From assembly GCA_963677485.1 (NCBI GenBank), contig OY781964.1:1184001-1248000 (forward strand): a stretch of DNA of 64,000 nucleotides, read 5' to 3'. This document shows, one piece after another, positions 8,267 to 22,839 of the stretch. This DNA is from Armatimonadota bacterium. Lineage in GTDB: Bacteria > Armatimonadota > HRBIN16. The notes beneath the pieces are model-generated. The model searched no databases. It saw only the letters and a list, made by a program, of their open reading frames with translations, and was not told the origin of the DNA. Position 1 is the first letter of the stretch. Each line of letters starts with the position of its first letter. Made by a program: the position numbers and the translations under genes.

Positions 8267-10177
8267 CTACTCGGCCTGAAGGCGCTCGAGCTCTTCGGAG
8301 ACGGCGGACCACTGCTCGGTCAACTGCTCAAGCTTGGTCTGCAAGAGGTCATACTCGTCGCCCAGCCGCTTGGCACTGCCGTCCAGATAAGGGTCGGTGC
8401 TGGCCAGTGACGCGGAGATCGCCTCCAGACGGGCCTCCACGGCGGCGATGGCCTCCTCCAGCTCCTTCTGACGGTTGTTCAACCGCTTCAGATTCTGCTT
8501 GATCTGCTTAGCTGTGTTACTCGGTCGTTTGTCGGATATGACGGTATGCAGAGGCACATCCGCCTGCTTCATAGCCAATCGAGCCATCACCTTCTGCCGG
8601 TAGTCGGTGTAAGTGCCCAGATAGCTATGGGTGTGGCCATCACGGAACTCAAGCACCCTGTCCACCACCGCGTCCAGCAAATAGCGGTCATGGCTGGCGA
8701 TCATCACGGCACCATCAAACTTGCGGATGGCGTTCTCCAGTGCCTCACGGCTCAGGATGTCCAGGTGGTTGGTCGGCTCATCCAGCAGCAGCAGGTTCGG
8801 TCGCTGGGCTAACAGCTTGGCCAATGCCAGCCGACAGAGCTCACCACCCGACAGCGAGCTGACCCGCTTGAAAACATCATCGCCCATGAACAGGAACCGT
8901 GCCAGCAGGTCTCGCGACTCATTCGCGGTCAGGTTGGCGTCCATCAGCAGTTCCTCGATCACCTCAAGGTTGGGGTCGAGGTGTTCAAACTGCTGCGCGA
9001 AGTAGACCGCATTCACGCGCATCCCCATCTCCACTTCACCCGAATCGGCCTCTATCAAACCGGCGACCACCTTCAGGAAGGTGCTCTTGCCAGAACCGTT
9101 AGGACCGACCAGCGCCACTTTCTGGCCCCGCTCAAGGATGAAGTCCATATCTTGAAACAGCTCTTTTTCGCCAAACCCCTTGCTCAGCTCAGCCACGCGG
9201 ATCACTTCACGTCCGCTTCGCATCGTCTCACCCAAATCAGCATGCATCTGCTTGGAGGAGCTGGTTTTGGCCACTTTCTTGATCCGCTCAAGCTCCTTCA
9301 GCTTCGAGTCGCGACGACTGAACTTTCGATGGCTAAACAGCTTCTGCACGCTGGCCTCGATGCGTGCGATCTCCCGCTGTTGCAGCGAGTAAAGCTTCGC
9401 CTGCTCTTCGCGTCGTTTGGCTTTGAGCACTGCGAACAACGTGTAGTTGCCGCTGTAGCTGACCGCCTCCCCGGCATCGAGCTCAATCACGCGGCTGACC
9501 ACCGCATCCATAAAGTAACGGTCGTGGCTGACGATCAGTGCCGCCCCGCTGTACCGCTCCAGCAGAAAAGATTGAAGCCATTCGCAGCCCTCGATATCCA
9601 GGTGGTTAGTCGGTTCGTCCAGCAGCAGCAGGTCAGGCGACTGCAGCAGCAGCCGGGCCAAACTGGCGCGGGTCTTCTGCCCGCCGCTCAGCGATTCGGT
9701 CTCCTGCTGCAGCTCCGCTTCTGAGAAACCCAGGGCGTCCAGATACTGTGCAGCTTGCGCCTTCAGGCTATATCCCTCAATTGCCTCGAACTGGTGGCTA
9801 AGGTCGGCGTAGCGTGACCCCAGCTCAATCGCTTCAGCGGTGGTGGCGTGGCCAAGGAGGTCTTCCACATCCTGCAGCTCGACGGCCAGCTCCGTCAGTC
9901 CTGGTCGAATGCCCAGCACAGCCTGATGCAGAGTGGCACCCTCGGGCAGATCGCAAATCTGCGGCAGGTAGCCGATTGTCAGCCCGTTTTGAATGCCCAC
10001 ATTGCCAGAATCGGCTTTTTCAAACCCCATGATGATTTTGAGCAGCGTGCTTTTGCCGGTGCCATTACCGCCGATGATGGCCACCCGTTCCCGCCCATTC
10101 ACCAGAAGGTTTAGGTCGTTGAACAGCACTTGTGGGCCGAAGGCTTTTGCGAGGTGGTTTACAGTTAAAATTGCCAT
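8267..10177 (-). CDS. ABC-F family ATP-binding protein (ribosome-associated)
   Basis: Two NBDs (GGNGTGKST/LSGGQ/LLDEPTNHLD and GPNGSGKST/LSGGE/LLDEPTNHLD), helical linker, C-terminal coiled coil, no TM segments. Confidence 0.95.
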   Translation of the reverse strand: MAILTVNHLAKAFGPQVLFNDLNLLVNGRERVAIIGGNGTGKSTLLKIIMGFEKADSGNVGIQNGLTIGYLPQICDLPEGATLHQAVLGIRPGLTELAVELQDVEDLLGHATTAEAIELGSRYADLSHQFEAIEGYSLKAQAAQYLDALGFSEAELQQETESLSGGQKTRASLARLLLQSPDLLLLDEPTNHLDIEGCEWLQSFLLERYSGAALIVSHDRYFMDAVVSRVIELDAGEAVSYSGNYTLFAVLKAKRREEQAKLYSLQQREIARIEASVQKLFSHRKFSRRDSKLKELERIKKVAKTSSSKQMHADLGETMRSGREVIRVAELSKGFGEKELFQDMDFILERGQKVALVGPNGSGKSTFLKVVAGLIEADSGEVEMGMRVNAVYFAQQFEHLDPNLEVIEELLMDANLTANESRDLLARFLFMGDDVFKRVSSLSGGELCRLALAKLLAQRPNLLLLDEPTNHLDILSREALENAIRKFDGAVMIASHDRYLLDAVVDRVLEFRDGHTHSYLGTYTDYRQKVMARLAMKQADVPLHTVISDKRPSNTAKQIKQNLKRLNNRQKELEEAIAAVEARLEAISASLASTDPYLDGSAKRLGDEYDLLQTKLEQLTEQWSAVSEELERLQAE

Positions 10178-10666
10178 AGCATTATCATTATAACGGGCTG
10201 CGCGTTTTCGTGCCTTTTCTTGCTGCTGCGGCTTGATATGTTCGTCGATGAATCAACGCAACAGAGATGACATAAGCAAACATCCGGACACCTTGATATG
10301 GTGGGTGGCCTTACTTTTAAATGAAGATATTCTGTAAAATATATATGTATATAAAACATTTGTATATACATATAGTGCAGATATATAAGTATATCATTGA
10401 CATATTTATGAATATAGTAACGATTATACTATACGCAATCTGTTATACATACATATCGAAATATCCCATCATGATTGACTGCAGAATGAGGGCATGATAT
10501 CTAGTCTCAAGCGCAGAGGACGTACGTAGAACAGGAGTGCAGACTTAGTAATCAACGAAATACTATGCACGGATGAGAATACCGACACACTGGTCATCAC
10601 CTGGAAATGGTGCCCATATCCACACGAATGATGCAGGTTTTTCATAACCAGCTTAGAAAGGAGTCG

Positions 10667-11605
10667 ATGCAGACAATGTATATCCAAATACGAGATATCG
10701 AAGGGACGGCCATCATCGCCGGAGACTACCCTGATATCAAATCTGTTGTTCAAAACCGAAGAGAGATACTTGGACCAGGCAATGCTAAAGGAAACGACCT
10801 GTCAAAAGCCGACCTGAGCGGGGCCAAGCTGGCATATACCAATCTGGAAGCGGTCCAGTTGTGGGGCTCCAACCTTCAGAATGCTGACCTATCGGCTGCC
10901 AATCTGGAAGGGGCAAAACTGGTGAAGGCTAACCTCTCCGGCGCAAACCTATCCAACGCCAACCTGCGCGGTGCGACCCTTAGCAATGCCATATTGGTCG
11001 GTGCCTGCCTTCAAGGGGCAGATATGAGTAATGCGAATCTGGTGGGCTCTGATCTGAGTAACGCCAGGCTAGCTGGTGCGAACCTCAGCGGGGCCTGGTT
11101 GAACTACACCATTCTGGCCAACACAGATATGCAGGACGTCAATCTAAACGGTGCTAAGATGAACGACGCCGTGTTAACGGGAGCCAATTTAAGCCGAGCG
11201 GAGCTCACAAATGCCATCCTGTCTTCAGCCGATCTGAATGGCGCGAACCTGAAAGATGCAAGGATGAACCACGCAAAAATGCTGAAGGCAGAACTGTGTG
11301 ACACCAACCTTGAGGGGGCCGACCTGTGCGATGTTATACTGCGTAACGCCCGCATGAGGGGCGCCAATCTACAGGGTGCCCGTATGTGTCGCGGTCTATT
11401 AATGTGCGTAGATCTGCATAGTGCTAACTTCTCGGGATCTGACTTGACCGAGGCCGATTTTACCAACGCGAAGTTAACAGCAGCCAATTTCCAAGGTGCC
11501 AATCTATACGGAGCGAAGCTGAATAAGGCGCACCTGCACAATGCCAATTTGATGTATGCCAATCTGTTACACACCGACTTCACCGATGTGAACTGGGTCA
11601 TATAA
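10667..11605 (+). CDS. Pentapeptide repeat protein
   Basis: About 50 consecutive A(D/N)LxG/S-type pentapeptides. ATG follows an AAAGGAG RBS. Confidence 0.93.
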   Translation: MQTMYIQIRDIEGTAIIAGDYPDIKSVVQNRREILGPGNAKGNDLSKADLSGAKLAYTNLEAVQLWGSNLQNADLSAANLEGAKLVKANLSGANLSNANLRGATLSNAILVGACLQGADMSNANLVGSDLSNARLAGANLSGAWLNYTILANTDMQDVNLNGAKMNDAVLTGANLSRAELTNAILSSADLNGANLKDARMNHAKMLKAELCDTNLEGADLCDVILRNARMRGANLQGARMCRGLLMCVDLHSANFSGSDLTEADFTNAKLTAANFQGANLYGAKLNKAHLHNANLMYANLLHTDFTDVNWVI

Positions 11606-11617
11606 CATGCCCGGTAA

Positions 11618-11647
11618 CCAGCGCGGTTTCCTTTCCGCGCTGGCTTT
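11618..11647 (+). terminator. Probable intrinsic terminator
   Basis: ccagcgcgg-tttccttt-ccgcgctgg followed by cttt, just after the stop codon. Confidence 0.55.
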
Positions 11648-11734
11648 CGGGTGTATACCGACAAACCCACACTTGAAGGTGTGATCTGCTATACTCTTCG
11701 CGCCGTCAACTGCGGTGTCGGGTGAGATCTCCCC

Positions 11735-11871
11735 CATTCGCGTTCATTCGCGTTCATCCGTGGTTAAAAGAAGACCGGTAGGATGAGTAGGTCGAGTAGG
11801 ACAGGTGCCATACCCGCGCGCTATCGCGTGAGACCTTCCCCATTCGCGTTCATTCGCGTTCATCCATGGTT
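11735..11871. repeat. Micro-repeat mosaic (two ATTCGCGTTC blocks around a GTAGGAxGA block)
   Basis: cattcgcgttcattcgcgttcatccRtggttaaaagaa at about 11735 and 11841; gtaggatgagtaggtcgagtagga at 11778. Confidence 0.8.
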
Positions 11872-12041
11872 AAAAGAATACCGGGTGAGAATGCGGCTCA
11901 GTTACAATACCCTTCACGCGAGATACACCCAATCTACTAAAATTACCGCTACCTAAAAGAAGGAACACCATAACCAACTGACGAAACTACAAATAGTCAT
12001 CACGACAGACAATACTCTTGAAATAACAAAGGATCGAAACA

Positions 12042-13443: not shown

Positions 13444-15408
13444 ATGTATGATATGGAGTTCTATCTGCTGATCTGCCAACGCTTCGCGGAGTTGAAACTG
13501 CGATCAGGCATCCCGGCCCAATCAACGGTGACAGGCTGGATGAAGCTGCTGGACTCGAACGGTCGTTTCAGCGACATCAATTACGCAGACCGCGGTGTGG
13601 CTACCTGGCAGCCTGGTGTTCATGTTTCTCGTATGGCCGATATGGCACGGGCCTACTCATACCCCTCCGGTGCGATGTACCACTCGGCACCCCTTCTAGA
13701 GGCCATACAGAATGCGTTGGAGTTCTGGGTCAAACATAGATACCAATGCCCCAACTGGTGGTATAACCGCATCGGCATACCATTGAATATGCAGATCGTG
13801 GCTGTCTTCCTACAGCCCATGCTAACGAAACAGCAGCTTGAAGGTGCTTTACAGATACTGGACCAGGCCGGGCCGGTTGAGCTCACAGCCGCAAACCTGC
13901 TTTGGGTCGCGGACATTGTGATCCACCGCGCAGCATTGCGCGGCCATACCGATGAGCTGATTTCAACACTGCATCGTGTGTGGCAAGAGGTGACCGTGGG
14001 TGGCGGCGAAGGCATTCAGACCGACGGCAGCTATTATCAGCACGGACACAGACTGCAGAGCCATCAATACGGTGAAGCGTTTATCACCACCATGACCGAG
14101 TTAGCCTGGCAGGTTCGGGATACCCCGTATGCGATTCCGACGGCGAAGCGGGACATCATCACGAGCTGCATTGTCAACGGCCTAGGCTGGATGTCGCGAG
14201 GGGATTACATCACACCGGCAACCATCGACCGTTCGGTCGTCCGCACCCGGGCCATGCGGGTGAGCCAGTCAAGCATGCTGGAGCTTTGGATGCAGGTGGT
14301 ACCGTCTAACCTGCGCAGCGCGCTGGATCGCACGCAAGGTATCATCCAGGATACGCAGACCACACCGTCCGGCTGCCGTTACTTTCCATATGGTGACCTC
14401 GCAGTGATACGTAACAGCAAATGGAGCTTCTTCCTGAAGACCATCAGCAAGCAGACGGAGTTGACTGAATCGATCAACGGCGAAAACCTGAAGGGTGTGC
14501 CCTATCTGAACTGCGGAAATCACTGGTTGCTAAAGAATGGTCAGGAGTATCTTGACACCGTCCCCCTTTGGGACTGGAGCCAGTTGCCAGGATTATCCGG
14601 CACCGCCAGGGATACAACTCCCGTGAAACCAGGCCGTGTCGCCGGACTATCGGACGGCAATCAGGGGATGGTCAGTATGCCGTTCATACGAAAGCAGGGC
14701 GATGCGAAATGGACATTGCTCAAGAGCTGGTTCCTCACGCAGCAAGGAGTGATCTGCCTCATCACCCCCGACGATACGGACCAACCCTCTGCTCGGTTAA
14801 GCACCAGCCTGGAGCAATGCCGCATCCAAAGCGATGTGTTTGTCAGCGCGGATGGGCAGGTGCGTAAGCTGCGAATCGGCCAACATATTGAGGACTGCGA
14901 CTGGGTTTGGCATCACGGCGTCTTGTATGCCAGCTATCAGGCGGGTCAACTATGTGTCAGCTTGGATCACAGGAAGGGAAACTGGCACGATATCAGCACA
15001 GAGGGTTCTGGTGACTGTGAAGCCGATATGCTGGGGGTATGGCTCAGGCATACCGGCGATGAGTCGTGTGCCACAGCAATCTGGCCGGACCAGCCAACAC
15101 CCAAGGACGCTGGCAAAGCAGGCATTCCTACCGTGGAGGTGCTGTCGAACAACAGTCACATGCAAGCCGTGCAGCTTTCATCGTCCACCACGATGGCGGT
15201 TTTCTACGACGCGGCTCAGCTCAAACTTCCGAAAGGTTCCACCGCGGTGGATAAGGCCTGCATGGTGCTTCGTATGGAGAGCAAGCTGTGTGTGGCCGGC
15301 TGGAGTGACCAAACGGGGGGCAAGCTCGGTATAAAGGTGGACGGTCAGAAACACACATCGACCCTGCCTGGTTATTTAAAATCCAAACCTGCCGTAGTAA
15401 AGCTGTAG
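13444..15408 (+). CDS. Polysaccharide lyase family 8 (chondroitin/hyaluronate/xanthan lyase-like)
   Basis: NWWYNRIGIP, TAANLLW, EGIQTDGSYYQHG...QYG, ESINGENLKG, WDWSQLPG motifs. Start codon uncertain. Confidence 0.88.
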   Translation: MYDMEFYLLICQRFAELKLRSGIPAQSTVTGWMKLLDSNGRFSDINYADRGVATWQPGVHVSRMADMARAYSYPSGAMYHSAPLLEAIQNALEFWVKHRYQCPNWWYNRIGIPLNMQIVAVFLQPMLTKQQLEGALQILDQAGPVELTAANLLWVADIVIHRAALRGHTDELISTLHRVWQEVTVGGGEGIQTDGSYYQHGHRLQSHQYGEAFITTMTELAWQVRDTPYAIPTAKRDIITSCIVNGLGWMSRGDYITPATIDRSVVRTRAMRVSQSSMLELWMQVVPSNLRSALDRTQGIIQDTQTTPSGCRYFPYGDLAVIRNSKWSFFLKTISKQTELTESINGENLKGVPYLNCGNHWLLKNGQEYLDTVPLWDWSQLPGLSGTARDTTPVKPGRVAGLSDGNQGMVSMPFIRKQGDAKWTLLKSWFLTQQGVICLITPDDTDQPSARLSTSLEQCRIQSDVFVSADGQVRKLRIGQHIEDCDWVWHHGVLYASYQAGQLCVSLDHRKGNWHDISTEGSGDCEADMLGVWLRHTGDESCATAIWPDQPTPKDAGKAGIPTVEVLSNNSHMQAVQLSSSTTMAVFYDAAQLKLPKGSTAVDKACMVLRMESKLCVAGWSDQTGGKLGIKVDGQKHTSTLPGYLKSKPAVVKL

Positions 15409-15571
15409 AGTCACCACCCAACCAAGTGCGATCCGGTCCTAATCTGCGTGATTTGCGTCATCTGTGGACTGATTCATCCGTGTCTGTTCGTGTCCATTCG
15501 TGGTTACACAAAATGACGTACATGTGTGGTCAAGCGCCTACCTAATAGCTCTCCACAGGTGTCCCATGCAT

Positions 15572-15601
15572 CATAACAGCCCGCCGAAGCGGGCTGTTAT
15601 G
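15572..15601. terminator. Perfect hairpin between convergent genes
   Basis: cataacagcccgc-cgaa-gcgggctgttatg. Confidence 0.6.
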
Positions 15602-15630
15602 ATTCTCACGGGCGAAAGACGGGCGAAAGA

Positions 15631-16866
15631 CTAGCTGATGAGCCCCTCGATGCGGGCATCCAGTGCACCCTGATCCGTGGCGAAGCTCTCCAAAGCGGCG
15701 TTCGTCAGCAGATCATCCAGTGCCACCTCATCGGACCAATGAGCTAGCACTGGGATTTTGCCATCTTTGCTGATGGTCTTCCGCTGTTCCGGGGTGAACG
15801 GGGTGAACATGTCGATGTCATACTGCTCAGCCAATGCGACAAGCTGTTCGCCTGAGATGATTGCATCACCGAGTTCGACGGCTTTGTCAGCAAACTCCAT
15901 GAACTTGGGGCAGAGCTGCCACAGGTAGCTCACACGCAGGTCCTCTACCTTAACCAGCAGCTCAGTCGATTCGTGCCGAGTGACTTCGCTGCATGGGGTA
16001 GGCGCCTCAAGGAACTGCTTCGCGGCCGATGGCGGGATGGTATGCACATCCACACCTGCCAGCAGAGCCACTTGGTCACCATTCCGCATAGAGGCGGCGA
16101 TCAACTTCGTGGGTGTCTTACCTGCTGCGCGCAGCCGTCTCAACGCTTCGACTGTGGCCAGGGTGACTTTTTCGCCCACATTGGCCGCTTCACCAATTTT
16201 GTTGTCAGCCACCAGCACGCCAATGCGTCCAAGGAAGACATTGACATAGGCCGGCTTGCTAAACAGGGCCGCCAACACGTTCTGGCGCACACTAAAGCCC
16301 AAGGTGTAGTTGATGGGCACACCAGCGGCAGCCAGTTTACGGGCGACGATGTATCCAGCCGGTGTGATGGGAACCTTGATGATGAAGAATTCGGGGTTTA
16401 TGGCAAAGTAGCGCAGACCGAAGTTCACGGAGGCTTCAATGTCGTTGGCATAGGCCGGATGCAGCTCCACACTGACCTTCACGCCGAACTTTTGCACCAG
16501 GCTTAAGGCCAGCTTCGCATTGGCAAGGAAGCCAATTTCCACCAGTAAGTCGCGGCCGGAGATTTCCGGGCGGGCGGCTTTCAGCTTGGATGCTGCTGAT
16601 TTGATGAACTCATCTAGTGCGCCGGTCTGGATCACCTGGTTCACCAGTGTGTTGTTGGTGGTCAGAGCACCTAGTTCGGGAGCCCATGCTTTCACTGCGG
16701 CTGAGGCATCGCCTGTATCAATCCAGGGGGTAGTGCCAAGCTCACGTAGACGGGCGTATTTAGGCTGCGAAGGGGCATCGTAGGATCCCGCTCCTGTGTA
16801 ACCGTCCAAGGCCAGCCCTTGAACTAGCTTCGCCAGTGTTTCATCAAAATGGATATCTTTACTCAT
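15631..16866 (-). CDS. tal: Transaldolase family protein
   Basis: WIDTG, TTNNTL, VSVELH, Schiff-base Lys in FIIKVP, INYTLGFS, NVFLGR, AASMR motifs. GGAGG RBS upstream. Confidence 0.88.
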   Translation of the reverse strand: MSKDIHFDETLAKLVQGLALDGYTGAGSYDAPSQPKYARLRELGTTPWIDTGDASAAVKAWAPELGALTTNNTLVNQVIQTGALDEFIKSAASKLKAARPEISGRDLLVEIGFLANAKLALSLVQKFGVKVSVELHPAYANDIEASVNFGLRYFAINPEFFIIKVPITPAGYIVARKLAAAGVPINYTLGFSVRQNVLAALFSKPAYVNVFLGRIGVLVADNKIGEAANVGEKVTLATVEALRRLRAAGKTPTKLIAASMRNGDQVALLAGVDVHTIPPSAAKQFLEAPTPCSEVTRHESTELLVKVEDLRVSYLWQLCPKFMEFADKAVELGDAIISGEQLVALAEQYDIDMFTPFTPEQRKTISKDGKIPVLAHWSDEVALDDLLTNAALESFATDQGALDARIEGLIS

Positions 16867-17011
16867 TGTGTGTCCTCCGGTAGATATCACACCGGTAGCT
16901 TTACAGTCAGGAACCGGTGCGAGTGTTGCATGTAGCACCAATTGGGGTACATGTGACAACGCACGCGGAGTAAATTTTCACTTACCCCGCGTGCCGAAAT
17001 ATGATCAACCC

Positions 17012-18187
17012 CTAATAGTTAGAGGGTTTTGGCCTTTCACATCGGTAACAGATGCTGCGGCGTGCGAAGTTGGATTCCCCACAGCCAGAGCAAGTCCAGT
17101 CACCAGGATTCTCATTCCCCGAATCGCTGGAACGCCGGGAGTAACCTCCCTGACCACCGCCAGCCGAGGCCGGCTTACGCGCACCACATCGGAAACAGCT
17201 CGTGCGACGGGCGAAGTTGGATGCGTTGCAGTCTGGACAGTTCCAGTCGCCGTCTCGCTGCTCCATCCGGCCGCCGCCAGATGGTGCATCACCACCACCC
17301 GGTTTTGGTGTGTTGCACTCCATACATACGGATCGCCGGGCGAAGTTCAATTTGTTACAACTCGGGCAAAGCCAGTCGCCCGGTTTCATCTGCGGTTCAG
17401 GCATTATACTCTCCACGGTAGATTTCATAGTTTCGTTCGTTCTCGGGCGTTTGCAGTTGAAGCAAGCCGTCCGATGGGCATAGTTGGTTGTGTTGCACTG
17501 CGGACACAGCCAGTCGCCTGGTTCCATCTTCACCCAAACGGCGTTGCACGCGCGGCATTCGGTGGCACTGAGTACCACTTCGGCGCCGCAACGTGGGCAT
17601 CGGCCGTTGGAGTTAGCAGATATCGGTGCCTGCATCTTCAACATATGCAGCACAATCTGAGCCAGCGAGCGTGCGTCATCTATCCCGCAGTCAGGGGTTC
17701 CGCTGTGCTCCAGACCACAATGCTCCAGCATATGGCTAAGGTCCAGGCGGTCGCTGTTGATCTGGCGGTAGAAGTCCTTAAACGCCACCTTCATGTTGCA
17801 CCAGCGAGCGGCCCAGTCCGGCATCGGCTGCTGCATGGTCAGGCATTGCTGCCTGAGCAGGATGTCGATGTCGAAGTCACCGCAAATGACGGCTAGACCC
17901 TCTTCATACCCCTTCTCAATCAGCCATTTTTGCACATTCACCAAAATATCCGAAAAAGAGGGAGCTGAAGCTACATCCTTCTGGGTGATGCCGGTAAGCT
18001 CAGCGCAATAAGCAGTAAGCTGAGGGTGGATCGATGGTTTGACAAAACTCCGGAATTCATCAATCACAGTATCGGATTCGGTATCAACCACAACAATAGG
18101 GAACTCGATCAACTCTGGCGGGTGAAGCGGCTGCGGGTCATCACAAGTCGTTTCAAAGTCCATTACCAATAGATATTTTGGGTACAC
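17012..18187 (-). CDS. ERI1/3'hExo-like DEDD 3'-5' exonuclease fused to a zinc ribbon and four RanBP2-type zinc fingers
   Basis: DFETTC..ELIEFP, FVKP...LTGITQ, CGDFD and GIDDA exonuclease motifs. Four GDWxCxxCxxxN(F/Y)AxRxxCxxC fingers. GTG start with AGGAGG RBS at 18195-18200. Confidence 0.9.
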   Translation of the reverse strand: MYPKYLLVMDFETTCDDPQPLHPPELIEFPIVVVDTESDTVIDEFRSFVKPSIHPQLTAYCAELTGITQKDVASAPSFSDILVNVQKWLIEKGYEEGLAVICGDFDIDILLRQQCLTMQQPMPDWAARWCNMKVAFKDFYRQINSDRLDLSHMLEHCGLEHSGTPDCGIDDARSLAQIVLHMLKMQAPISANSNGRCPRCGAEVVLSATECRACNAVWVKMEPGDWLCPQCNTTNYAHRTACFNCKRPRTNETMKSTVESIMPEPQMKPGDWLCPSCNKLNFARRSVCMECNTPKPGGGDAPSGGGRMEQRDGDWNCPDCNASNFARRTSCFRCGARKPASAGGGQGGYSRRSSDSGNENPGDWTCSGCGESNFARRSICYRCERPKPSNY

Positions 18188-18330
18188 CTGGTATCCTCCT
18201 GGGGCGCATGTCCAGCACCACTATATGCAACCTTCACGGTATACATCATTCGTCATAAATGCAGAGAAATTCGTCCCCTGCCCTATTATTATGGACTAAT
18301 ATTGAACTAAAGGTATAAATTGCACCATTT

Positions 18331-18373
18331 CATGCTGGGGCAGACGCATACTAAGCCGTCTATCCCCAGCATG
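18331..18373. terminator. Hairpin downstream of the aldo-keto reductase
   Basis: catgctggggcagacg...cgtctatccccagcatg. Confidence 0.5.
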
Positions 18374-18380
18374 ATAGAAG

Positions 18381-19385
18381 CTATATCAGCCCCAGAACCT
18401 CGTCGATCTGCTTTAGCTCTTGCTCGCTGAAGTCAAGTGATTTTAGTGTCGCGACGTTCTCGTCGAGTTGGTCCACACGGCTGACGCCAATCAAGCAACT
18501 GGTGACCGACGGCCGGCCCAGCAGCCAGGCCAGCGACATCTGAGCCAGGCTTTGTTCGCGGGCGGCAGCGATTTCGGAAAGGAGTTTCACCTTCACCATC
18601 ACTTCGTCGTTGATCTGTTCCTTCTTCAGGAAGCCGTGGGGTTTCGACGCCCTGCTGCCAGGTTCGATACCGTGTAGATACCGTCCGGTAAGCAGTCCCT
18701 GCGCCAATGGACAGAATGGGATACATCCGATGCCCTCTTGCAGCAGCACGTCGCTTAAGCCCTGCTCCACCCAGCGGTTCATCATGTTATACAGCGGTTG
18801 GTGGATGAGGCAAGGGGTGCCAAGGCGTTTCAGGATAGCCGAAGCCTGAGCGGTGCTCTCCGCGTCGTAGCTGCTGATGCCCACATACAGAGCTTTGCCA
18901 CTGCGCACGATGTAGTCCAGCGCGGCCATCGACTCCTCAAGAGGCGTCTCGGGATCTGGGCGGTGATGGTAGAAGATGTCTACATATTCCAGCCCCATGC
19001 GCTTTAAAGACTGATCCAGGCTGGAGACCAGGTATTTACGTGAACCCCAGTCACCATATGGCCCTGGCCACATGTAGTATCCCGCCTTGGTGGAGATCAG
19101 CATCTCGTCGCGGTAGGGACGAAGGTCATCGCGCAGCAGCTTGCCGAAGTTCTCCTCCGCGCTGCCCCCCACCGGACCGTAGTTGTTGGCCAGGTCGAAG
19201 TGGGTGATACCCAGATCGAAGGCATGTATCCCTAAATTGCGGATGTTATCATACTGATCGACACTACCGAAGTTATGCCACCATCCCAGAGAGAGTGCGG
19301 GCAACTTGAGGCCGCTCTTACCGCAACGGCGGTAGAGCATCGATTGGTAGCGATCGGCTGAAGCAACGGTTGGACCGTATGGCAT
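18381..19385 (-). CDS. gpr: Aldo-keto reductase, L-glyceraldehyde 3-phosphate reductase (YghZ/Gpr) type
   Basis: YRRCGKSGLKLPALSLGWWHNFG, FDLANNYGP, STKAGYYMWPGPYGDWGSRKYL, DIFYHHRPD motifs. Confidence 0.9.
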   Translation of the reverse strand: MPYGPTVASADRYQSMLYRRCGKSGLKLPALSLGWWHNFGSVDQYDNIRNLGIHAFDLGITHFDLANNYGPVGGSAEENFGKLLRDDLRPYRDEMLISTKAGYYMWPGPYGDWGSRKYLVSSLDQSLKRMGLEYVDIFYHHRPDPETPLEESMAALDYIVRSGKALYVGISSYDAESTAQASAILKRLGTPCLIHQPLYNMMNRWVEQGLSDVLLQEGIGCIPFCPLAQGLLTGRYLHGIEPGSRASKPHGFLKKEQINDEVMVKVKLLSEIAAAREQSLAQMSLAWLLGRPSVTSCLIGVSRVDQLDENVATLKSLDFSEQELKQIDEVLGLI

Positions 19386-19621
19386 TACAGAGACCTCCTG
19401 ACGGTTGTTAACTAGCTCCATCATACCCGATATGAGCTGATAGAAGATACGGGGCGGGGGGAGGAGAACAGGAGGGAGGAGTGCAGGAGGGAGGAGCATC
19501 GCGTGCGGTTCCCACGGTATGTCAGACGTGTAGGATGAGTAGGACGAGTAGGACTGTCCCCTTCTGACTCCTCCCCTCCCGTCTCCTGACTCCTGCTCTC
19601 CTGACTTCTCCCCTCCTCCCC

Positions 19622-21007
19622 CTACGAAATCTGCTTCCGCAGGCGGGCGATGAGGGCCGCCAGTTGCTGGTCGGTGGTAAGTTGAAGGTGAAGACGCTTC
19701 AAGCCGTTCATCACGGTGCTGTGGTCCTTGCCAAAAAGTTTGCCGATCTGACTAAGCGACATCTGTGCCAGCTCTTGAAGAAGGTAATAGGCGATGTATC
19801 GTGCCTGGATGGAGTTCTTGTCGCGTTGAACGCTCATCAACTTTTCACGCTCAATGCCGCACTGCTCGCAGACCGCTTTGAGTATCTTCTCATCACGCCG
19901 TGCTTCTGGTGCCAGGTCAATATAGTATTCTGTCAGCACGCTGTCCACCAACTCTGAAGTGATGGTGTGCCCCAGCAACTGCGCTCGTGCCATCACGGAG
20001 ACCATCACACCTTCCAGCGTCCGGATATTGCTCTCAATGGCGTTAGCCACTTGGTAGAGTATCTCCTTAGGCACCTGATACGCCTTTTGCTGACATAGGT
20101 TCGCCAAAATCGCCACCCGAGTCTCATAGTCAGGCGGGGCGATGTCCACTATCAACCCGGCCTCAAACCGGCTACGCAGCCTGCCGTCCAGGGCGGGAAG
20201 CTGTTTAGGCGGTCGGTCGCTGCATAGAACAACCTGCCGGCGATGCATCATCAACTCGTTGAAGATATGGAAGAACTCCTCATTCGTCTTATCTTTACCG
20301 GCGATGAACTGGATGTCATCCACCAGCCAAACCTCGATGATGCTCATCCGATGGACGAACGCATCCGTGGTGCGGTCACGCAACGACTGCACAAACTGCT
20401 GGGTGAACTTTTCGCCGGTGATGTAGCCGATGCGTATGTTGGGCCGCTCTTGCAGCAGGCGGTGCGCGATGGCATGCATCAGATGGGTTTTGCCTAGACC
20501 GTGGGAGCCATAGATAAAAAGAGGGTTGTACTTCTGCGCAGGTTCTTCGGCAACGGCACAAGCCGCGGCGGCGGCCAGCCGGTTGTTGCTGCCGGTAATA
20601 AATCGGTCAAACACGTAATCGTCGTTCAGCTCCAGTGGCTCTATGTTGTAGGCTGAGCGTTTGGGCCTTGCAGTCGGCTTGGTGAGCTGTTCGATGTCTG
20701 ACGGTTCGTCTTGCTTCTGGTCAGAAGGGCGCACCACAAACTCGATGGAGATATCCTCACCCAGTTGAGGTGCGAGGGCCGACTTGATGATTCCAGCGAA
20801 CTTGTTGGTCAGCCAGGTACGTGCAAAAGCGCTCGGGACGTTCAACACCACAATCCGCCCATTCATTCGCTCTGGGTTGATGGTCTTAATCCAACTGTTG
20901 TAGCTGGGCACACCGACCTTCAATTCCAGCTCATGCAACGCCGAGGTCCACGCCTTGCGCAGAGCCAGAAGCATTTCATTGTCGCCGAATTGAAGTTGGT
21001 CAGGCAT
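19622..21007 (-). CDS. dnaA: Chromosomal replication initiator DnaA
   Basis: Domain I, YVFDRFITGSNN, YNPLFIYGSHGLGKTHL (Walker A), VDDIQFI, EEFFHIFN, RLRSRF, NIRTLEG, domain IV KDHSTV. Confidence 0.95.
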   Translation of the reverse strand: MPDQLQFGDNEMLLALRKAWTSALHELELKVGVPSYNSWIKTINPERMNGRIVVLNVPSAFARTWLTNKFAGIIKSALAPQLGEDISIEFVVRPSDQKQDEPSDIEQLTKPTARPKRSAYNIEPLELNDDYVFDRFITGSNNRLAAAAACAVAEEPAQKYNPLFIYGSHGLGKTHLMHAIAHRLLQERPNIRIGYITGEKFTQQFVQSLRDRTTDAFVHRMSIIEVWLVDDIQFIAGKDKTNEEFFHIFNELMMHRRQVVLCSDRPPKQLPALDGRLRSRFEAGLIVDIAPPDYETRVAILANLCQQKAYQVPKEILYQVANAIESNIRTLEGVMVSVMARAQLLGHTITSELVDSVLTEYYIDLAPEARRDEKILKAVCEQCGIEREKLMSVQRDKNSIQARYIAYYLLQELAQMSLSQIGKLFGKDHSTVMNGLKRLHLQLTTDQQLAALIARLRKQIS

Positions 21008-21096
21008 ATGTGGGTATCCATCCTATAAGCGTTGTGATTTGCAGATGACCGAAGAGGCCAGGAAATTGGGTTACCTCTATATGATAAGCTATATTC

Positions 21097-22839
21097 ATGA
21101 TCACCGCAGACTTATGTCAGACAGCTCGCGAAGTTGTCAGCCAATATCTGGTTAGCAGCGAATATTGCTATACAAACCATCAGCCGCTGGACCGTGAGCT
21201 TGTTTCAGACGCTTTGGCCCAGTACATTGGGACCCATCGTTCTGATGAAGAGACAGAGCTGATGGTGGCCCAATACCCCATTCTACTTGACTGCGAGATA
21301 TTTGCAAGCGATGATGGGGTGCCCCACATACAGCCGATCACTGGCACCCATCACCAGCGCAAACATGGAGCCTTCTACACCCCGACGGCCATGATCAGCC
21401 AGATTCTACAGCATATCATGCCAGCTGACCATGAACCCGAAAGCATCTGCGATCCGGCGTGCGGAACAGGTCTGTTCCTGACCCAGGCGGCCAGGCTCAT
21501 CGCTGAGCGGCGCAGCCGGAGGCTTGGCGAGCCATATGCGGTCGCGTTGCGTTGGGTGTTATGTCACTCGATCTTCGGAGTGGAGCTGGATGCGGGTGCT
21601 GCGAAACTGGCCCGGAGCCTGCTGTCGGCCATGGTCGATCATCATCCTGAAGCCATCAAGGCCCTTGAGGGGCATATCACCAATGCCGATGCGCTCTTGA
21701 CCAACTGGACACAGCAGTATGAACTGGTGGTTGGCAATCCACCTTATATCGACTCGGAGTCGATGATACGCCATCAGCCCGACGTGCGGCGCAAAATATC
21801 AGAGCGATACACCAGTGCCACCGGCAACTGGGATATCTATATTCCGTTCGTGGAACTGGCGATGAAGCTGACACAACCCGGCGGATACTTTGGGCTGATC
21901 ACCCCCGCCGGGCTGATGTACGCCCGTTATGCGGAAAGCATCCAAAACATGATTCTAGCCCAGACTACACCCACTGTCTATCTGGATTTTTCTCAGGCCA
22001 GGCCATTTGACAACGCGAGCGTAGAGGTCGGTGTGTTGGTCTGCCGTAAGGGACCATCCGGCTCGTGTGGTATGCTTCAGCGCGTGCGGTATGATATAAA
22101 GCTGCAGGTACTCGACCAGCAGTCGGCCCCTCTTTCCAGATTCCGTCAACTGCCCTTAGCTCCGCTGGGAGCCATTTGGGACATTGATAAGGTCAGCCTG
22201 CGCATATCTACGCTTCCCAACCGGCTGGGCGACTACCTGGTATGTTCAGATGGGGCATCAACCGGTGAGGCCTACCAGATTGCCGAATGGCTGATCGACC
22301 GCGACGCACTAGATGACGACCTCAGGCTGGTCAACACCGGCACCATTGACCCATACCGGCTGTTGTGGGGTAGCAAGCCGATCACCTACATCAAAAAGCA
22401 GATGCTTCACCCCGTGGTGCCCGCTGAGGTTCTACGCGAGAAGCTGCCACGGCGTTACGCGCAGGCCATACAGGCCAAAGTGGTCATGGCAGGCCTGTGT
22501 ACGCAACTTGAGGCGGCGGTGGCACCCGCGGGCGTGCTATGCGGCAAGTCGGCTGTGCAGGCCATTCCTGCAGCCGATGTGTGCGTCTACGCCGTCACGG
22601 CTTATCTGAACAGCACGCCTGTCCGCCGCTACATGAGCCAGATGCACGGCACCAGCCTGACCGGCAGGCGAGGCCTACAGGTCACCCGCCGGTCTATTGA
22701 GGCGGTCCCAGCCCCGCTGCTGTGCCATCTAGCCGACGGCAGCGCCCTGAGCCAGTTGGGCAGACAAGCGCACGCGCAAGGCTGCGATCAGCAGATGCAG
22801 GTTGCGGTTGACACGCTGGTGTTGGGGCTGCTACCATAG
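21097..22839 (+). CDS. Orphan N6-adenine DNA methyltransferase (TaqI/Eco57I-like, gamma class)
   Basis: GAFYTP (motif X), DPACGTGLFL (motif I), VGNPPY (motif IV), C-terminal TaqI_C-like target-recognition domain. No adjacent endonuclease. Confidence 0.88.
   Translation: MITADLCQTAREVVSQYLVSSEYCYTNHQPLDRELVSDALAQYIGTHRSDEETELMVAQYPILLDCEIFASDDGVPHIQPITGTHHQRKHGAFYTPTAMISQILQHIMPADHEPESICDPACGTGLFLTQAARLIAERRSRRLGEPYAVALRWVLCHSIFGVELDAGAAKLARSLLSAMVDHHPEAIKALEGHITNADALLTNWTQQYELVVGNPPYIDSESMIRHQPDVRRKISERYTSATGNWDIYIPFVELAMKLTQPGGYFGLITPAGLMYARYAESIQNMILAQTTPTVYLDFSQARPFDNASVEVGVLVCRKGPSGSCGMLQRVRYDIKLQVLDQQSAPLSRFRQLPLAPLGAIWDIDKVSLRISTLPNRLGDYLVCSDGASTGEAYQIAEWLIDRDALDDDLRLVNTGTIDPYRLLWGSKPITYIKKQMLHPVVPAEVLREKLPRRYAQAIQAKVVMAGLCTQLEAAVAPAGVLCGKSAVQAIPAADVCVYAVTAYLNSTPVRRYMSQMHGTSLTGRRGLQVTRRSIEAVPAPLLCHLADGSALSQLGRQAHAQGCDQQMQVAVDTLVLGLLP

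What the first reader, a model, noticed from the sequence alone, without database searches (positions are those of the whole stretch)
17012..18187. Eukaryote-type ERI1 exonuclease fused to four RNA-reading RanBP2 zinc fingers in a bacterial chromosome
Seen in sequence: the N-terminal ~190 aa follow the eukaryotic ERI1/ERI2/ERI3 (3'hExo) pattern closely (DFETTC, IEFP, FVKP..HPQLTAYC..LTGITQ, CGDFD, QC, W.NMK..F, GIDDA). As I recall, bacterial KapD-like relatives have IEIGA instead of IEFP. A CxxC-CxxC ribbon follows, then four GDWxCxxCxxxN(F/Y)AxRxxCxxC fingers (about 17440-17524, 17300-17387, 17173-17257, 17025-17110) joined partly by Gly/Ser-rich linkers. Established: the D-W...N-F-A-R-R signature marks the ssRNA-binding RanBP2 subclass (ZRANB2, FUS/TAF15, RBM5), which reads GGU motifs, and ERI1 trims small RNAs, histone mRNA and 5.8S rRNA ends. 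The gene has no intron, has a strong AGGAGG RBS and lies between ordinary bacterial genes. Inference: a eukaryote-derived, domesticated, sequence-specific RNA 3'-processing or RNA-surveillance protein, possibly for anti-phage or post-transcriptional control. I know of no such description in bacteria.
Basis: partly seen in the sequence, partly recalled or inferred. Interest (0 to 1): 0.88.

Follow-up and report, generated by a model that had tools for sequence, protein, structure and literature searches.

The report
Bacterial ERI-type exonuclease with RNA zinc fingers
A real bacterial gene joins an ERI1/ERI3-like exonuclease domain to four RNA-reading RanBP2 zinc fingers; it belongs to a small, scattered bacterial family rather than being unique, and its own lineage has lost the histidine that normally drives cutting.

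Summary
Window 17012-18187 (-) is an intact 391-aa ORF with an AGGAGG ribosome-binding site. It encodes an RNase_T/DEDD domain whose best solved relatives are human ERI3 and ERI1, then a C4 ribbon, then four RanBP2 fingers of the ssRNA-binding type.

- The gene is not unique. The profile search listed about 50 metagenome protein clusters with exonuclease plus RanBP2 fingers, including a Gemmataceae MAG, a Frigoriglobus MAG and a low-GC bacterial contig with four fingers.
- A CxxCGxE..CxxC ribbon is shared only with those bacterial proteins. This points to transfer between bacteria.
- The tree cannot tell that origin from a sister position to eukaryotic ERI1 (AU p = 0.62).
- In the phylum, the full-length gene was found only in the three genomes of one genus, of 401 searched.

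It is His in 128 of 134 relatives. Even so, both domains are under strong purifying selection (dN/dS 0.03 and 0.02).

My reading is a GG-directed RNA 3'-end binder or slow trimmer. New variant of a known kind; interest moderate.

The parts
17012..18187 (-). Whole CDS, 391 aa, GTG start and TAG stop
   Evidence: orthologues at 95 % and 64 % identity in G001 and G002
18195..18200 (-). AGGAGG ribosome-binding site, 7 nt before the GTG
   Evidence: read from the sequence
17654..18169 (-). DEDD 3'-5' exonuclease domain (Pfam RNase_T, residues 7-178), ERI1/ERI3-like fold
   Evidence: 85.5 bits; ERI3 E 1.4e-35; Foldseek: 7k05 TM 0.90 and 1w0h TM 0.92, normalised by target length
17690..17692 (-). Codon GAC = Asp166, at the position of the DEDDh general-base His. 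It is Asn in two orthologues.
   Evidence: alignments; column tally (H in 128 of 134 rows; D, D, N, N in this clade)
17543..17602 (-). C4 zinc ribbon (R196-N215; CxxCGxE...CxxC)
   Evidence: weak Pfam Zn_Ribbon_1 match; motif shared with 28 of 50 other exonuclease-finger proteins and 0 of 80 other relatives
17438..17521 (-). RanBP2 finger 1 (residues 223-250), variant N-Y-A-H-R
   Evidence: (34.1 bits)
17300..17383 (-). RanBP2 finger 2 (residues 269-296), N-F-A-R-R
   Evidence: (36.0 bits)
17171..17254 (-). RanBP2 finger 3 (residues 312-339), N-F-A-R-R; closest to ZNF265 finger 1 and RBM5/RBM10
   Evidence: (42.8 bits)
17024..17107 (-). RanBP2 finger 4 (residues 361-388), N-F-A-R-R
   Evidence: (35.4 bits)
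16961..16994 (-). 15-bp hairpin just after the stop codon, with no U tract; possibly a terminator or a 3' protective stem
   Evidence: -26.9 kcal/mol, z -4.7, 0 of 200 shuffles fold as well

Best explanation
This is a genuine chromosomal gene. The genome is probably of the phylum Armatimonadota; that name comes from a member of the same 90 %-identity protein cluster. The gene belongs to a small, patchily distributed bacterial family in which an ERI1/ERI3-like DEDD exonuclease domain is followed by a C4 ribbon and RanBP2-type zinc fingers.

Origin. The ancestor of one genus most likely acquired the gene by horizontal transfer from another bacterium that carried the exonuclease + ribbon + two-finger form. 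Two more fingers were then added.

Proposed mechanism (inferred). The four fingers, joined by flexible Gly/Ser-rich linkers, each clamp a GG-containing triplet of single-stranded RNA. The aromatic residue stacks between the two guanines and the Arg-Arg pair reads them. The third base is probably not U-specific, because the Asn that reads U in ZRANB2 is Phe, Met or Tyr here, as in the GGG-reading RBM5 finger. This tethers the DEDD pocket to an RNA 3' end.

In this clade the general-base His is replaced by Asp or Asn, while all four metal ligands are kept and the domain stays under strong purifying selection. The domain therefore most likely binds the 3' end with metal ions and cuts only slowly or conditionally. 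That would make the protein a 3'-end binder, protector or limited trimmer of a specific set of G-rich RNAs, not a processive degrader.

Shown: architecture, residues, distribution and selection. Inferred: RNA specificity, weakened catalysis and the donor.
For: Architecture and family: Pfam RNase_T plus 4 RanBP fingers; PDB sequence matches to ERI3, ERI1, ERI2 and CRN-4; the AF2 model (pLDDT 77.8) superposes on ERI3 and on the 3'hExo nuclease domain with TM 0.90 and 0.92.

Finger class: finger 3 matches ZNF265 finger 1 (NFARRTSC identical) and RBM5/RBM10 (CFRCGA.K). Residue roles come from passages of PMC11789483 read: W79 stacks on G1 and G2, R81 reads G1, R82 reads G2, N86 reads U3, and the RBM5 finger prefers GGG.

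Bacterial family: the profile search listed about 50 clusters with PF00929 + PF00641. These include a Gemmataceae MAG protein, Frigoriglobus L010 with planctomycete-type neighbours, and L030, a 6.7-kb contig of 38 % GC with bacterial neighbours and a four-finger protein.

Shared derived ribbon: 4 of 4 in this clade, 28 of 50 other exonuclease-finger proteins, 0 of 80 other relatives.

Distribution: the full-length gene is in 3 of 401 genomes of the phylum, all three in one genus; it was not found in the 15 genomes of the family's other two genera. Synteny (methyltransferase, dnaA, aldo/keto reductase, this gene, transaldolase-like) is the same in G002. GC (0.55) matches its neighbours and GC3 (0.62) is slightly below theirs.

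Loss of His: H in 128 of 134 aligned relatives; D, D, N, N in the four members of this clade. D10, E12, D106 and D171 are kept. The stem branch of the clade is long, 0.99-1.13 changes per site.

Selection, window against G001: dN/dS is 0.026 for the exonuclease, 0.015 for the fingers and 0.13 for the linkers.

Weak sign of transcription: short contigs from four metatranscriptome runs lie on the gene. Two of the nine pieces are identical to the window; the others carry 2-14 differences.
Against: No biochemical data exist for any member of the family.

Asp166 could itself act as a general base, and S. cerevisiae Pop2p with a SEDQt site still shows RNase activity in vitro (PMC1888821). The very low dN/dS of the exonuclease domain, with all four metal ligands kept, fits an active enzyme at least as well as a binder.

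The exonuclease tree supports grouping with the bacterial finger-bearing proteins only moderately (84/83, not starred). A tree forcing this clade together with eukaryotic ERI1 is not rejected and even scored 3.66 log-likelihood units higher (AU p = 0.62).

The direction of transfer between this genus and the Gemmataceae-type lineage is not shown. In Gemmataceae too the full-length gene was found in only 1 of 151 genomes.

The RNA-library contigs may derive from contaminating DNA.

The GG specificity is extrapolated from eukaryotic fingers of roughly 45-70 % identity.
Confidence: 0.55

Rival explanations
1. It is a fully active, sequence-directed 3'-5' exoribonuclease. The fingers recruit it to GG(N) motifs, and the DEDD site trims or degrades the RNA, with Asp166 or a metal-bound water replacing the His as general base.
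For: All four metal ligands are kept. The exonuclease domain is under strong purifying selection (dN/dS 0.026). KapD, a relative, is an active 3'-exoribonuclease (PMC11736430, abstract and passages). Yeast Pop2p is active in vitro despite its SEDQt site (PMC1888821). The His-bearing relatives in Gemmataceae are probably active enzymes with the same architecture.
Against: Two of the four orthologues have Asn at the His position, and Asn cannot act as a base. His is kept in 128 of 134 relatives. The stem branch of the clade is long, which suggests a change of function.
Confidence: 0.3
2. The gene came directly from a eukaryote into the ancestor of this genus.
For: The best solved relatives are human ERI3 and ERI1. 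The finger-only hits that carry an organism name are all eukaryotic. RanBP2 fingers scored above the cut-off in none of 14 control prokaryote genomes. The AU test does not reject a clade of this group plus eukaryotic ERI1 (p = 0.62).
Against: No row bearing a eukaryote's name combines PF00929 with PF00641. Eukaryotic ERI1 carries a SAP domain instead. The ribbon and the order of the first two fingers are shared with bacterial proteins. The free tree groups the clade with bacterial sequences. Base composition is like the host's.
Confidence: 0.12
3. It is an anti-phage or RNA-surveillance defence nuclease.
For: The distribution is patchy and suggests horizontal transfer. There are generic matches to a Cas-associated DEDDh model and to PDC-S48. 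The same exonuclease clade is fused elsewhere to Tpt1, PF08719 and DUF1810 domains, and the DUF1810 fusion lies beside an ORF that I judged HipA-like by eye, without a family search.
Against: The PADLOC hits are fold-level only (52 bits to a 139-position DEDDh domain model). The neighbours in three lineages are housekeeping genes and differ between lineages. The nearest methyltransferase lies beyond dnaA. Viral contigs gave only finger-less relatives at 31-34 % identity.
Confidence: 0.1
4. It is an assembly chimera or eukaryotic contamination.
For: None was found, apart from the eukaryote-like domains themselves.
Against: The same gene sits in the same synteny in two single-contig genomes and in a third MAG contig. 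Five non-RNA runs from two coded studies hold all sampled words of the stretch. The gene has a bacterial RBS, and its GC matches the flanks.
Confidence: 0.01

Closest known systems
Human ERI3 and ERI1 (3'hExo) nuclease domains (PDB 7k05, 2xri, 1w0h)
   Same: Same fold. Sequence E-values are 1e-35 to 5e-34. Foldseek gives TM 0.90-0.92 at rmsd 1.3-1.6 A. The motifs DFE.TC, IEFP, HPQLT, LTGI, CGD(W/F)D and GIDD are shared, as are the DEDD metal ligands.
   Different: There is no SAP domain. The general-base His is Asp or Asn. The C-terminus carries a ribbon and four RanBP2 fingers. The host is bacterial.
Bacillus subtilis KapD, a 3'-exoribonuclease of the ERI-1 family (PMC11736430)
   Same: It is a bacterial member of the same DEDDh superfamily. 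It matches the KapD model over residues 4-186.
   Different: The score is 73 bits against the equivalog cut-off of 169. The KapD-like genes of the same phylum form a separate clade with 100/100 support. KapD has no zinc fingers; that it keeps the DEDDh His is my inference from the Figure 1 legend passage, since the figure itself was not seen.
Unnamed bacterial exonuclease + ribbon + 2 RanBP2-finger proteins (265-310 aa; Gemmataceae MAG P0014, Frigoriglobus P0126/L010)
   Same: They share the domain order, the CxxCGxE..CxxC ribbon and alignable fingers 1 and 2, at about 40 % identity. They fall in the same tree clade at 84/83 support.
   Different: They have two fingers rather than four. They keep the catalytic His ('RLHSGIDD'), they are shorter, and they come from a different phylum.
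ssRNA-binding RanBP2 fingers of ZRANB2/ZNF265, RBM5, RBM10, FUS and TAF15
   Same: The pattern is the same: D-W-x-C-x2-C-x3-N-[FY]-A-R-R-x2-C-x2-C. Finger 3 matches 1n0z at E 2.5e-8 and RBM10 and RBM5 at E 4e-6 and 2.5e-5.
   Different: The position of ZRANB2 N86/N32, which reads U3, is Phe, Met, Phe and Tyr in the four fingers, as in RBM5/RBM10. Finger 1 reads N-Y-A-H-R. The fingers lie in a bacterial protein fused to a nuclease fold.
ESRP1: an RNase H-like (DEDDh-like) domain followed by qRRMs (PDB 7wrn)
   Same: An exonuclease-type fold is placed N-terminal to RNA-binding modules. Foldseek ranks it 18th, E 2.1e-10. I recall, but did not test, that this domain in ESRP1 is catalytically inactive. 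That would make it a precedent for a nuclease fold reused in an RNA-binding protein.
   Different: Identity is only 20 %. The RNA-binding modules are RRMs rather than zinc fingers. It is a eukaryotic splicing factor.

Membership tests
DEDDh 3'-5' exonucleases, ERI1/ERI3/KapD branch (Pfam PF00929 RNase_T) | DnaQ-like fold that matches the family model above its cut-off | tested here: met
   82.9 bits against a cut-off of 24; Foldseek TM 0.90-0.92 to ERI3 and 3'hExo
DEDDh 3'-5' exonucleases, ERI1/ERI3/KapD branch (Pfam PF00929 RNase_T) | Four acidic metal ligands (D, E, D, D) | tested here: met
   D10, E12, D106 and D171 are present. These columns are conserved in 131-134 of 134 aligned relatives.
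DEDDh 3'-5' exonucleases, ERI1/ERI3/KapD branch (Pfam PF00929 RNase_T) | Fifth catalytic residue His (the 'h'), five residues before the last Asp | tested here: not met
   Asp166 in the window and P0001; Asn in P0002 and P0003; His in 128 of 134 relatives
DEDDh 3'-5' exonucleases, ERI1/ERI3/KapD branch (Pfam PF00929 RNase_T) | 3'-5' exoribonuclease activity | not testable with these tools
   Needs an enzyme assay
ERI1 proper (3'hExo / Eri-1) | N-terminal SAP domain (PF02037) before the nuclease domain | tested here: not met
   No PF02037 hit. The nuclease domain starts at residue 7. The eukaryotic ERI1 hits carry PF02037.
KapD equivalog (NCBIfam NF005838) | Score above the curated cut-off of 169 bits | tested here: not met
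   73 bits. The KapD-like genes of the phylum form a separate clade with 100/100 support.
RanBP2-type zinc finger (PF00641), ssRNA-binding subclass | C4 finger that matches PF00641 above its cut-off | tested here: met
   Four stretches, each 34-43 bits against a cut-off of 27
RanBP2-type zinc finger (PF00641), ssRNA-binding subclass | Stacking aromatic residue (ZRANB2 W79 position) and the Arg-Arg pair (R81, R82) | tested here: met
   N-F-A-R-R in fingers 2-4. Finger 1 has N-Y-A-H-R, so its Arg pair is only half kept. Residue roles are from PMC11789483 passages.
RanBP2-type zinc finger (PF00641), ssRNA-binding subclass | Asn after the third Cys (ZRANB2 N86/N32), which reads the U of GGU | tested here: not met
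   Phe, Met, Phe and Tyr in fingers 1-4. RBM5 and RBM10 also have Phe, and the RBM5 finger prefers GGG.
RanBP2-type zinc finger (PF00641), ssRNA-binding subclass | Binding of single-stranded RNA | not testable with these tools
   Needs RBNS, EMSA or NMR
Bacterial exonuclease-ribbon-RanBP2 family (unnamed) | ERI-like exonuclease domain, then a CxxCGxE..CxxC ribbon, then RanBP2 fingers, in a bacterial genome | tested here: met
   Alignment A1; ribbon tally; tree clade at 84/83; bacterial context of L010 and L030
Known anti-phage defence systems (PADLOC-DB 2.0) | Match to a system-specific protein model, with the system's partner genes adjacent | tested here: not met
   Only the generic DEDDh domain model (52 bits) and weak PDC-S48 matches. 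The neighbours are an aldo/keto reductase and a transaldolase-like gene.

The most novel reading that the evidence does not exclude
This lineage has turned an ERI-type exonuclease into a pseudo-nuclease or very slow nuclease. Its metal-loaded DEDD pocket holds an RNA 3' end while four RanBP2 fingers read a string of GG triplets. That would be a bacterial, sequence-specific RNA 3'-end binding regulator, and the first case of RanBP2-finger RNA recognition working in a prokaryote. The wider family would show that bacteria use this otherwise eukaryotic RNA-reading module, and would offer a compact natural scaffold for programmable RNA binders and nucleases.
Probability: 0.3. Interest if true: 0.7.

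Novelty: new variant of a known kind. Interest (0 to 1): 0.5.

Why it matters
RanBP2-type RNA-binding fingers are treated as a eukaryotic invention. Here they sit in a conserved, selected bacterial gene, and in a scattered bacterial family, fused to the ERI-type nuclease that in eukaryotes trims small RNAs, histone mRNA and 5.8S rRNA.

If the fingers read GG triplets as their eukaryotic relatives do, these would be among the smallest natural sequence-directed RNA 3'-end enzymes or binders. The family also offers a natural comparison: His-bearing, presumably active forms beside His-less forms.

It is a clear case for studying transfer of RNA-metabolism modules between eukaryotes and bacteria, or among bacteria.

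Tried and rejected
- A word-index search with the exonuclease domain alone found nothing: 33 candidates, none at E <= 1e-10. This reflects the word prefilter, not absence, because the profile search A2 later gave 1000 hits.
Closer relatives, or other His-less relatives, may have been missed.
- The promoter and terminator scan of 15400-21300 gave no more sites than shuffled sequence.
- Synteny outside the genus was uninformative. The transaldolase-like orthologue exists in the sister genus (G004, G006), but dnaA and the reductase are not within the 9-10 kb fetched, so no insertion site could be defined.
- Comparing neighbourhoods of relatives (L030-L037) showed no neighbour conserved between lineages. 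In L036 my ORF picker took a wrong-frame ORF, so that locus was not really examined.
- Viral contigs held only 4 exonuclease-only relatives at 31-34 % identity. That scan is limited to a few peptide patterns.
- PADLOC gave generic matches only.
- A Gemmataceae family scan found the full-length gene only in G401, of 151 genomes searched.
- RNA-library contigs cover only parts of the gene. For example, no cover was seen at about 17940-18086 in the four runs laid. This proves nothing, and neither depth nor strand can be read from contigs.
- The tree could not resolve bacterial against eukaryotic sister placement.
- Supplementary files of the papers were not opened.
- I could not inspect the coordinates of the AF2 model, so I did not test whether another side chain could stand in for the missing His. 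No His is conserved in that loop across the four orthologues.
This report is the same text with that field added.
Full report
OBSERVATION. Window 17012-18187 (-) holds a single uninterrupted ORF of 391 codons. It starts at GTG 18187-18185, preceded by AGGAGG at 18200-18195, and ends at TAG. Pfam finds RNase_T at residues 7-178 (82.9 bits, cut-off 24) and four Zn_ribbon_RanBP stretches (101.5 bits in all, cut-off 27). A scan of the whole genome with PF00641 places the fingers at window 17444-17518, 17297-17386, 17171-17257 and 17021-17104, each above the cut-off. Between the exonuclease and the fingers lies a C4 ribbon, C197/C200/C211/C214.

The best solved relatives by sequence are human ERI3 (E 1.4e-35), ERI1/3'hExo (4.9e-34), ERI2 and CRN-4. 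An AlphaFold2 model (mean pLDDT 77.8; exonuclease blocks mostly above 85) superposes on ERI3 (TM 0.90, rmsd 1.6 A) and on the 3'hExo nuclease domain (TM 0.92, rmsd 1.3 A). The NCBIfam KapD equivalog reaches only 73 of the 169 bits it requires.

In the HMMER alignment to ERI3, the query reads g-t-p-D-c-g-i-d-d where ERI3 reads g-r-p-H-s-g-i-d-d. That His is the 'h' of DEDDh, the general base. [quoted passage not shown] Passages of PMC3439924 describe His181 of RNase T as the general base.

In an alignment of 134 exonuclease domains, this column is His in 128 rows. It is Asp, Asp, Asn, Asn in the four members of the window's clade, Lys in one divergent KapD-like row, and a gap in one fragment. 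The four metal ligands D10, E12, D106 and D171 are kept. No other His is conserved in that loop across the four orthologues.

WHERE IT LIVES. The window lies in a 5.22-Mb single-contig genome. A protein in the same 90 %-identity cluster is named 'MAG: zinc finger protein [Armatimonadota bacterium]' by NCBI.
- The full-length gene is present in both other genomes of the genus, at 95 % and 64 % identity. It was not found in the 15 genomes of the two other genera of the family, nor in any other of the 401 genomes of the phylum that were searched.
- Eighteen of those genomes have only finger-less KapD-like genes, at 36 % identity or less.
- In G002 the gene order is the same: methyltransferase, dnaA, aldo/keto reductase, this gene, transaldolase-like.
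- Five non-RNA runs hold all sampled words of the stretch.
- GC (0.55) matches the neighbours; GC3 (0.62) is slightly below theirs (0.63-0.77).
- In its own genome it is the only PF00929 hit and the only PF00641 hit above the cut-off.

An assembly chimera is therefore excluded, and the gene has been resident since before the genus diversified.

SELECTION. Between the window and G001, dS is about 0.5. dN/dS is 0.026 for the exonuclease domain, 0.015 for the four finger cores, 0.13 for the linkers and 0.20 for the ribbon. Against G002, synonymous sites are saturated, but amino-acid identity is 68 % (exonuclease), 74 % (fingers) and 30 % (linkers). Both modules are functional despite the missing His.

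RELATIVES. The first search found proteins of 265-285 aa with PF00929 + PF00641 at about 40 % identity, one of them named as a Gemmataceae MAG protein. A profile of the exonuclease domain (A2) then gave 1000 hits at E <= 1e-8. The top of that list holds about 50 clusters of exonuclease + RanBP proteins of 226-310 aa. Most come from metagenomes and carry automatic names such as 'inhibitor of KinA sporulation pathway (predicted exonuclease)'.

A pattern-limited scan of the GTDB species genomes found the architecture in a Frigoriglobus MAG. That scan used two peptide patterns and gave 7 confirmed loci. The neighbours there look planctomycete-like by eye; no family search was run on them. Within 151 genomes of that family, only this one had the full-length gene.

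Two further clusters (P0182, P0202; 432-451 aa) carry the exonuclease, with His, plus four fingers and a G/N/Y/R-rich low-complexity linker. The 6.7-kb contig L030 (GC 0.36-0.42) encodes P0202 without interruption. It lies between an ORF whose counterpart in L031 matches the sodium:alanine symporter family and ORFs that by eye resemble a THUMP-type methyltransferase and a Ser/Thr kinase; those two calls are mine and untested. The genes are closely packed on one strand, so this lineage is bacterial too.

The same exonuclease clade is also fused to DUF1810 (Thiocystis minor), to Tpt1 and to PF08719. So the architecture is not unique to this genome. It is a scattered bacterial family.

I found no paper on it. 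I read only listings and the quoted passages.
- 'RanBP2-type zinc finger' + bacteria + 'horizontal gene transfer': 7 papers.
- 'zf-RanBP' + bacterial: 12 papers.
- RanBP2 + Planctomycetes: 2 papers.
- ERI1 + KapD + exonuclease: 2 papers.

None of these deals with this fusion.

PHYLOGENY. A quick tree was built of 134 exonuclease domains. Before it, two hits whose match covered fewer than 150 of the 191 profile positions were dropped, by a filter in the script whose output was lost. A careful tree of 66 chosen rows followed (LG+C20+F+G4, ultrafast bootstrap/SH-aLRT). The two trees agree.
- The KapD-like genes of the same phylum, with a Moraxellaceae gene, split off at 100/100.
- The window's clade is monophyletic (100/100) on a long stem of 0.99-1.13 changes per site.
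- It lies in a starred clade (96/92) that also holds the eukaryotic SAP-bearing ERI1 group (100/98) and the bacterial finger-bearing and DUF1810-fused proteins.
- Its grouping with the latter has only 84/83 support.
- An AU test of the alternative 'window clade + eukaryotic ERI1' does not reject it. That tree even scored 3.66 log-likelihood units better (p = 0.62).

The sequence tree therefore cannot name the sister group. A rarer character can. The CxxCGxE...CxxC ribbon directly after the exonuclease domain is present in 4 of 4 members of the window's clade and in 28 of 50 other exonuclease-finger proteins. It is absent from all 80 remaining rows: 17 SAP-ERI1, 7 named eukaryotes, 6 named bacteria, 38 unnamed and 12 KapD-like of the phylum. 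Fingers 1 and 2 align with the two fingers of the shorter proteins, and fingers 3 and 4 form a C-terminal extension.

I infer a common origin of the fusion, and acquisition by the genus ancestor from another bacterium, followed by addition of two fingers and loss of the His. Whether the family as a whole once drew its parts from eukaryotes is plausible. RanBP2 fingers scored above the cut-off in none of 14 control prokaryote genomes, and the finger-only hits that carry an organism name are all eukaryotic. But this is not shown.

FINGERS. Finger 3 (DGDWNCPDCNASNFARRTSCFRCGARKP) aligns to ZNF265/ZRANB2 finger 1 with NFARRTSC identical (E 2.5e-8). It also aligns to RBM10 and RBM5, whose ...NF.(R/K)R..CF(R/K)CG..K it shares.

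Passages of PMC11789483 give the roles of the ZRANB2 residues. W79 stacks on the two guanines. R81 reads G1. R82 reads G2. N86 reads U3. The RBM5 finger prefers GGG. Fingers 2-4 keep the aromatic residue and the Arg-Arg pair. Finger 1 has Tyr and His-Arg. The N86 position is Phe, Met, Phe and Tyr.

The Nup153 and RanBP2 fingers that also match lack the N-F and R-R residues in the printed alignments. That they bind Ran rather than RNA is recalled, not tested. My prediction, an inference, is recognition of GG plus a variable third base, up to four sites per protein, spaced by flexible linkers. The linkers vary in length between strains; one RNA-library contig has a 12-nt in-frame insertion behind 17150.

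MECHANISM. Most likely, the fingers tether the protein to G-rich single-stranded RNA and the DEDD pocket binds the 3' end with metal ions. Without the general base, hydrolysis should be slow or conditional. That would make the protein a 3'-end binder, protector or limited trimmer (confidence about 0.55 for the whole statement).

The main rival is a fully active enzyme in which Asp166 or a metal-bound water acts as the base (0.3). The strong selection on the domain and the in-vitro activity of SEDQt Pop2p speak for it. The Asn in two orthologues speaks against it.

A defence role has no specific support. A role in DNA proofreading, suggested only by the gene being the sole PF00929 member and lying two genes from dnaA, is unlikely, given its restriction to one genus and its RNA-type fingers.

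EXPRESSION. Nine short contigs (151-322 nt) from four metatranscriptome runs lie on the gene. Two carry no difference from the window; the others carry 2-14 differences. One of the identical contigs spans the start codon (18091-18237). This is a weak hint only, because DNA may be present in such libraries.

VERDICT. The gene is a His-less, four-finger variant of an undescribed but database-visible bacterial family that fuses an ERI-type exonuclease with RanBP2 fingers. Novelty: new variant of a known kind. Interest: 0.5.

Noticed in passing
whole genome G000: This gene is the only match to PF00929 (RNase_T/DnaQ-like exonuclease) in the 5.22-Mb genome. No dnaQ-type epsilon, RNase T or Orn was detected with that family model.
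   Followed up: no
window 16961-16994 (-): A perfect 15-bp hairpin lies directly after the stop codon (-26.9 kcal/mol, z -4.7) with no U tract. It may be a terminator or a 3'-protective stem before the transaldolase-like gene.
   Followed up: partly
window 17150 (linker between fingers 3 and 4): One contig of RNA-library run X1 carries a 12-nt in-frame insertion here. The orthologues also differ in the length of this Gly-rich linker.
   Followed up: no
L030 2192-3511 (+); protein P0202: A low-GC (about 38 %) bacterial contig encodes an exonuclease + four-finger protein. The linker between its fingers 2 and 3 is a G/N/Y/R-rich low-complexity stretch reminiscent of FUS-type regions. The catalytic His is kept.
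   Followed up: partly
L011 1570-2991 (+) (Thiocystis minor); proteins P0131, P0200, P0184: The same exonuclease clade occurs fused to DUF1810 (next to an ORF that looks HipA-like by eye, not searched), to an RNA 2'-phosphotransferase Tpt1 domain, and to PF08719. This hints at links to RNA repair or ADP-ribose chemistry.
   Followed up: no
window 19622-22839: dnaA (19622-21007, -) lies divergent from an Eco57I/N6_Mtase-type methyltransferase (21097-22839, +). The pair is conserved next to the gene in G002 (L009).
   Followed up: no
window 10001-12000: GC drops locally to 0.483, against about 0.55 elsewhere, around a 332-aa pentapeptide-repeat gene (10607-11605, +).
   Followed up: no
Fold search, rank 18: The model also resembles the RNase H-like domain of ESRP1 that precedes its qRRMs (7wrn, E 2.1e-10). 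This is a known case of an exonuclease-type fold inside an RNA-binding protein.
   Followed up: no
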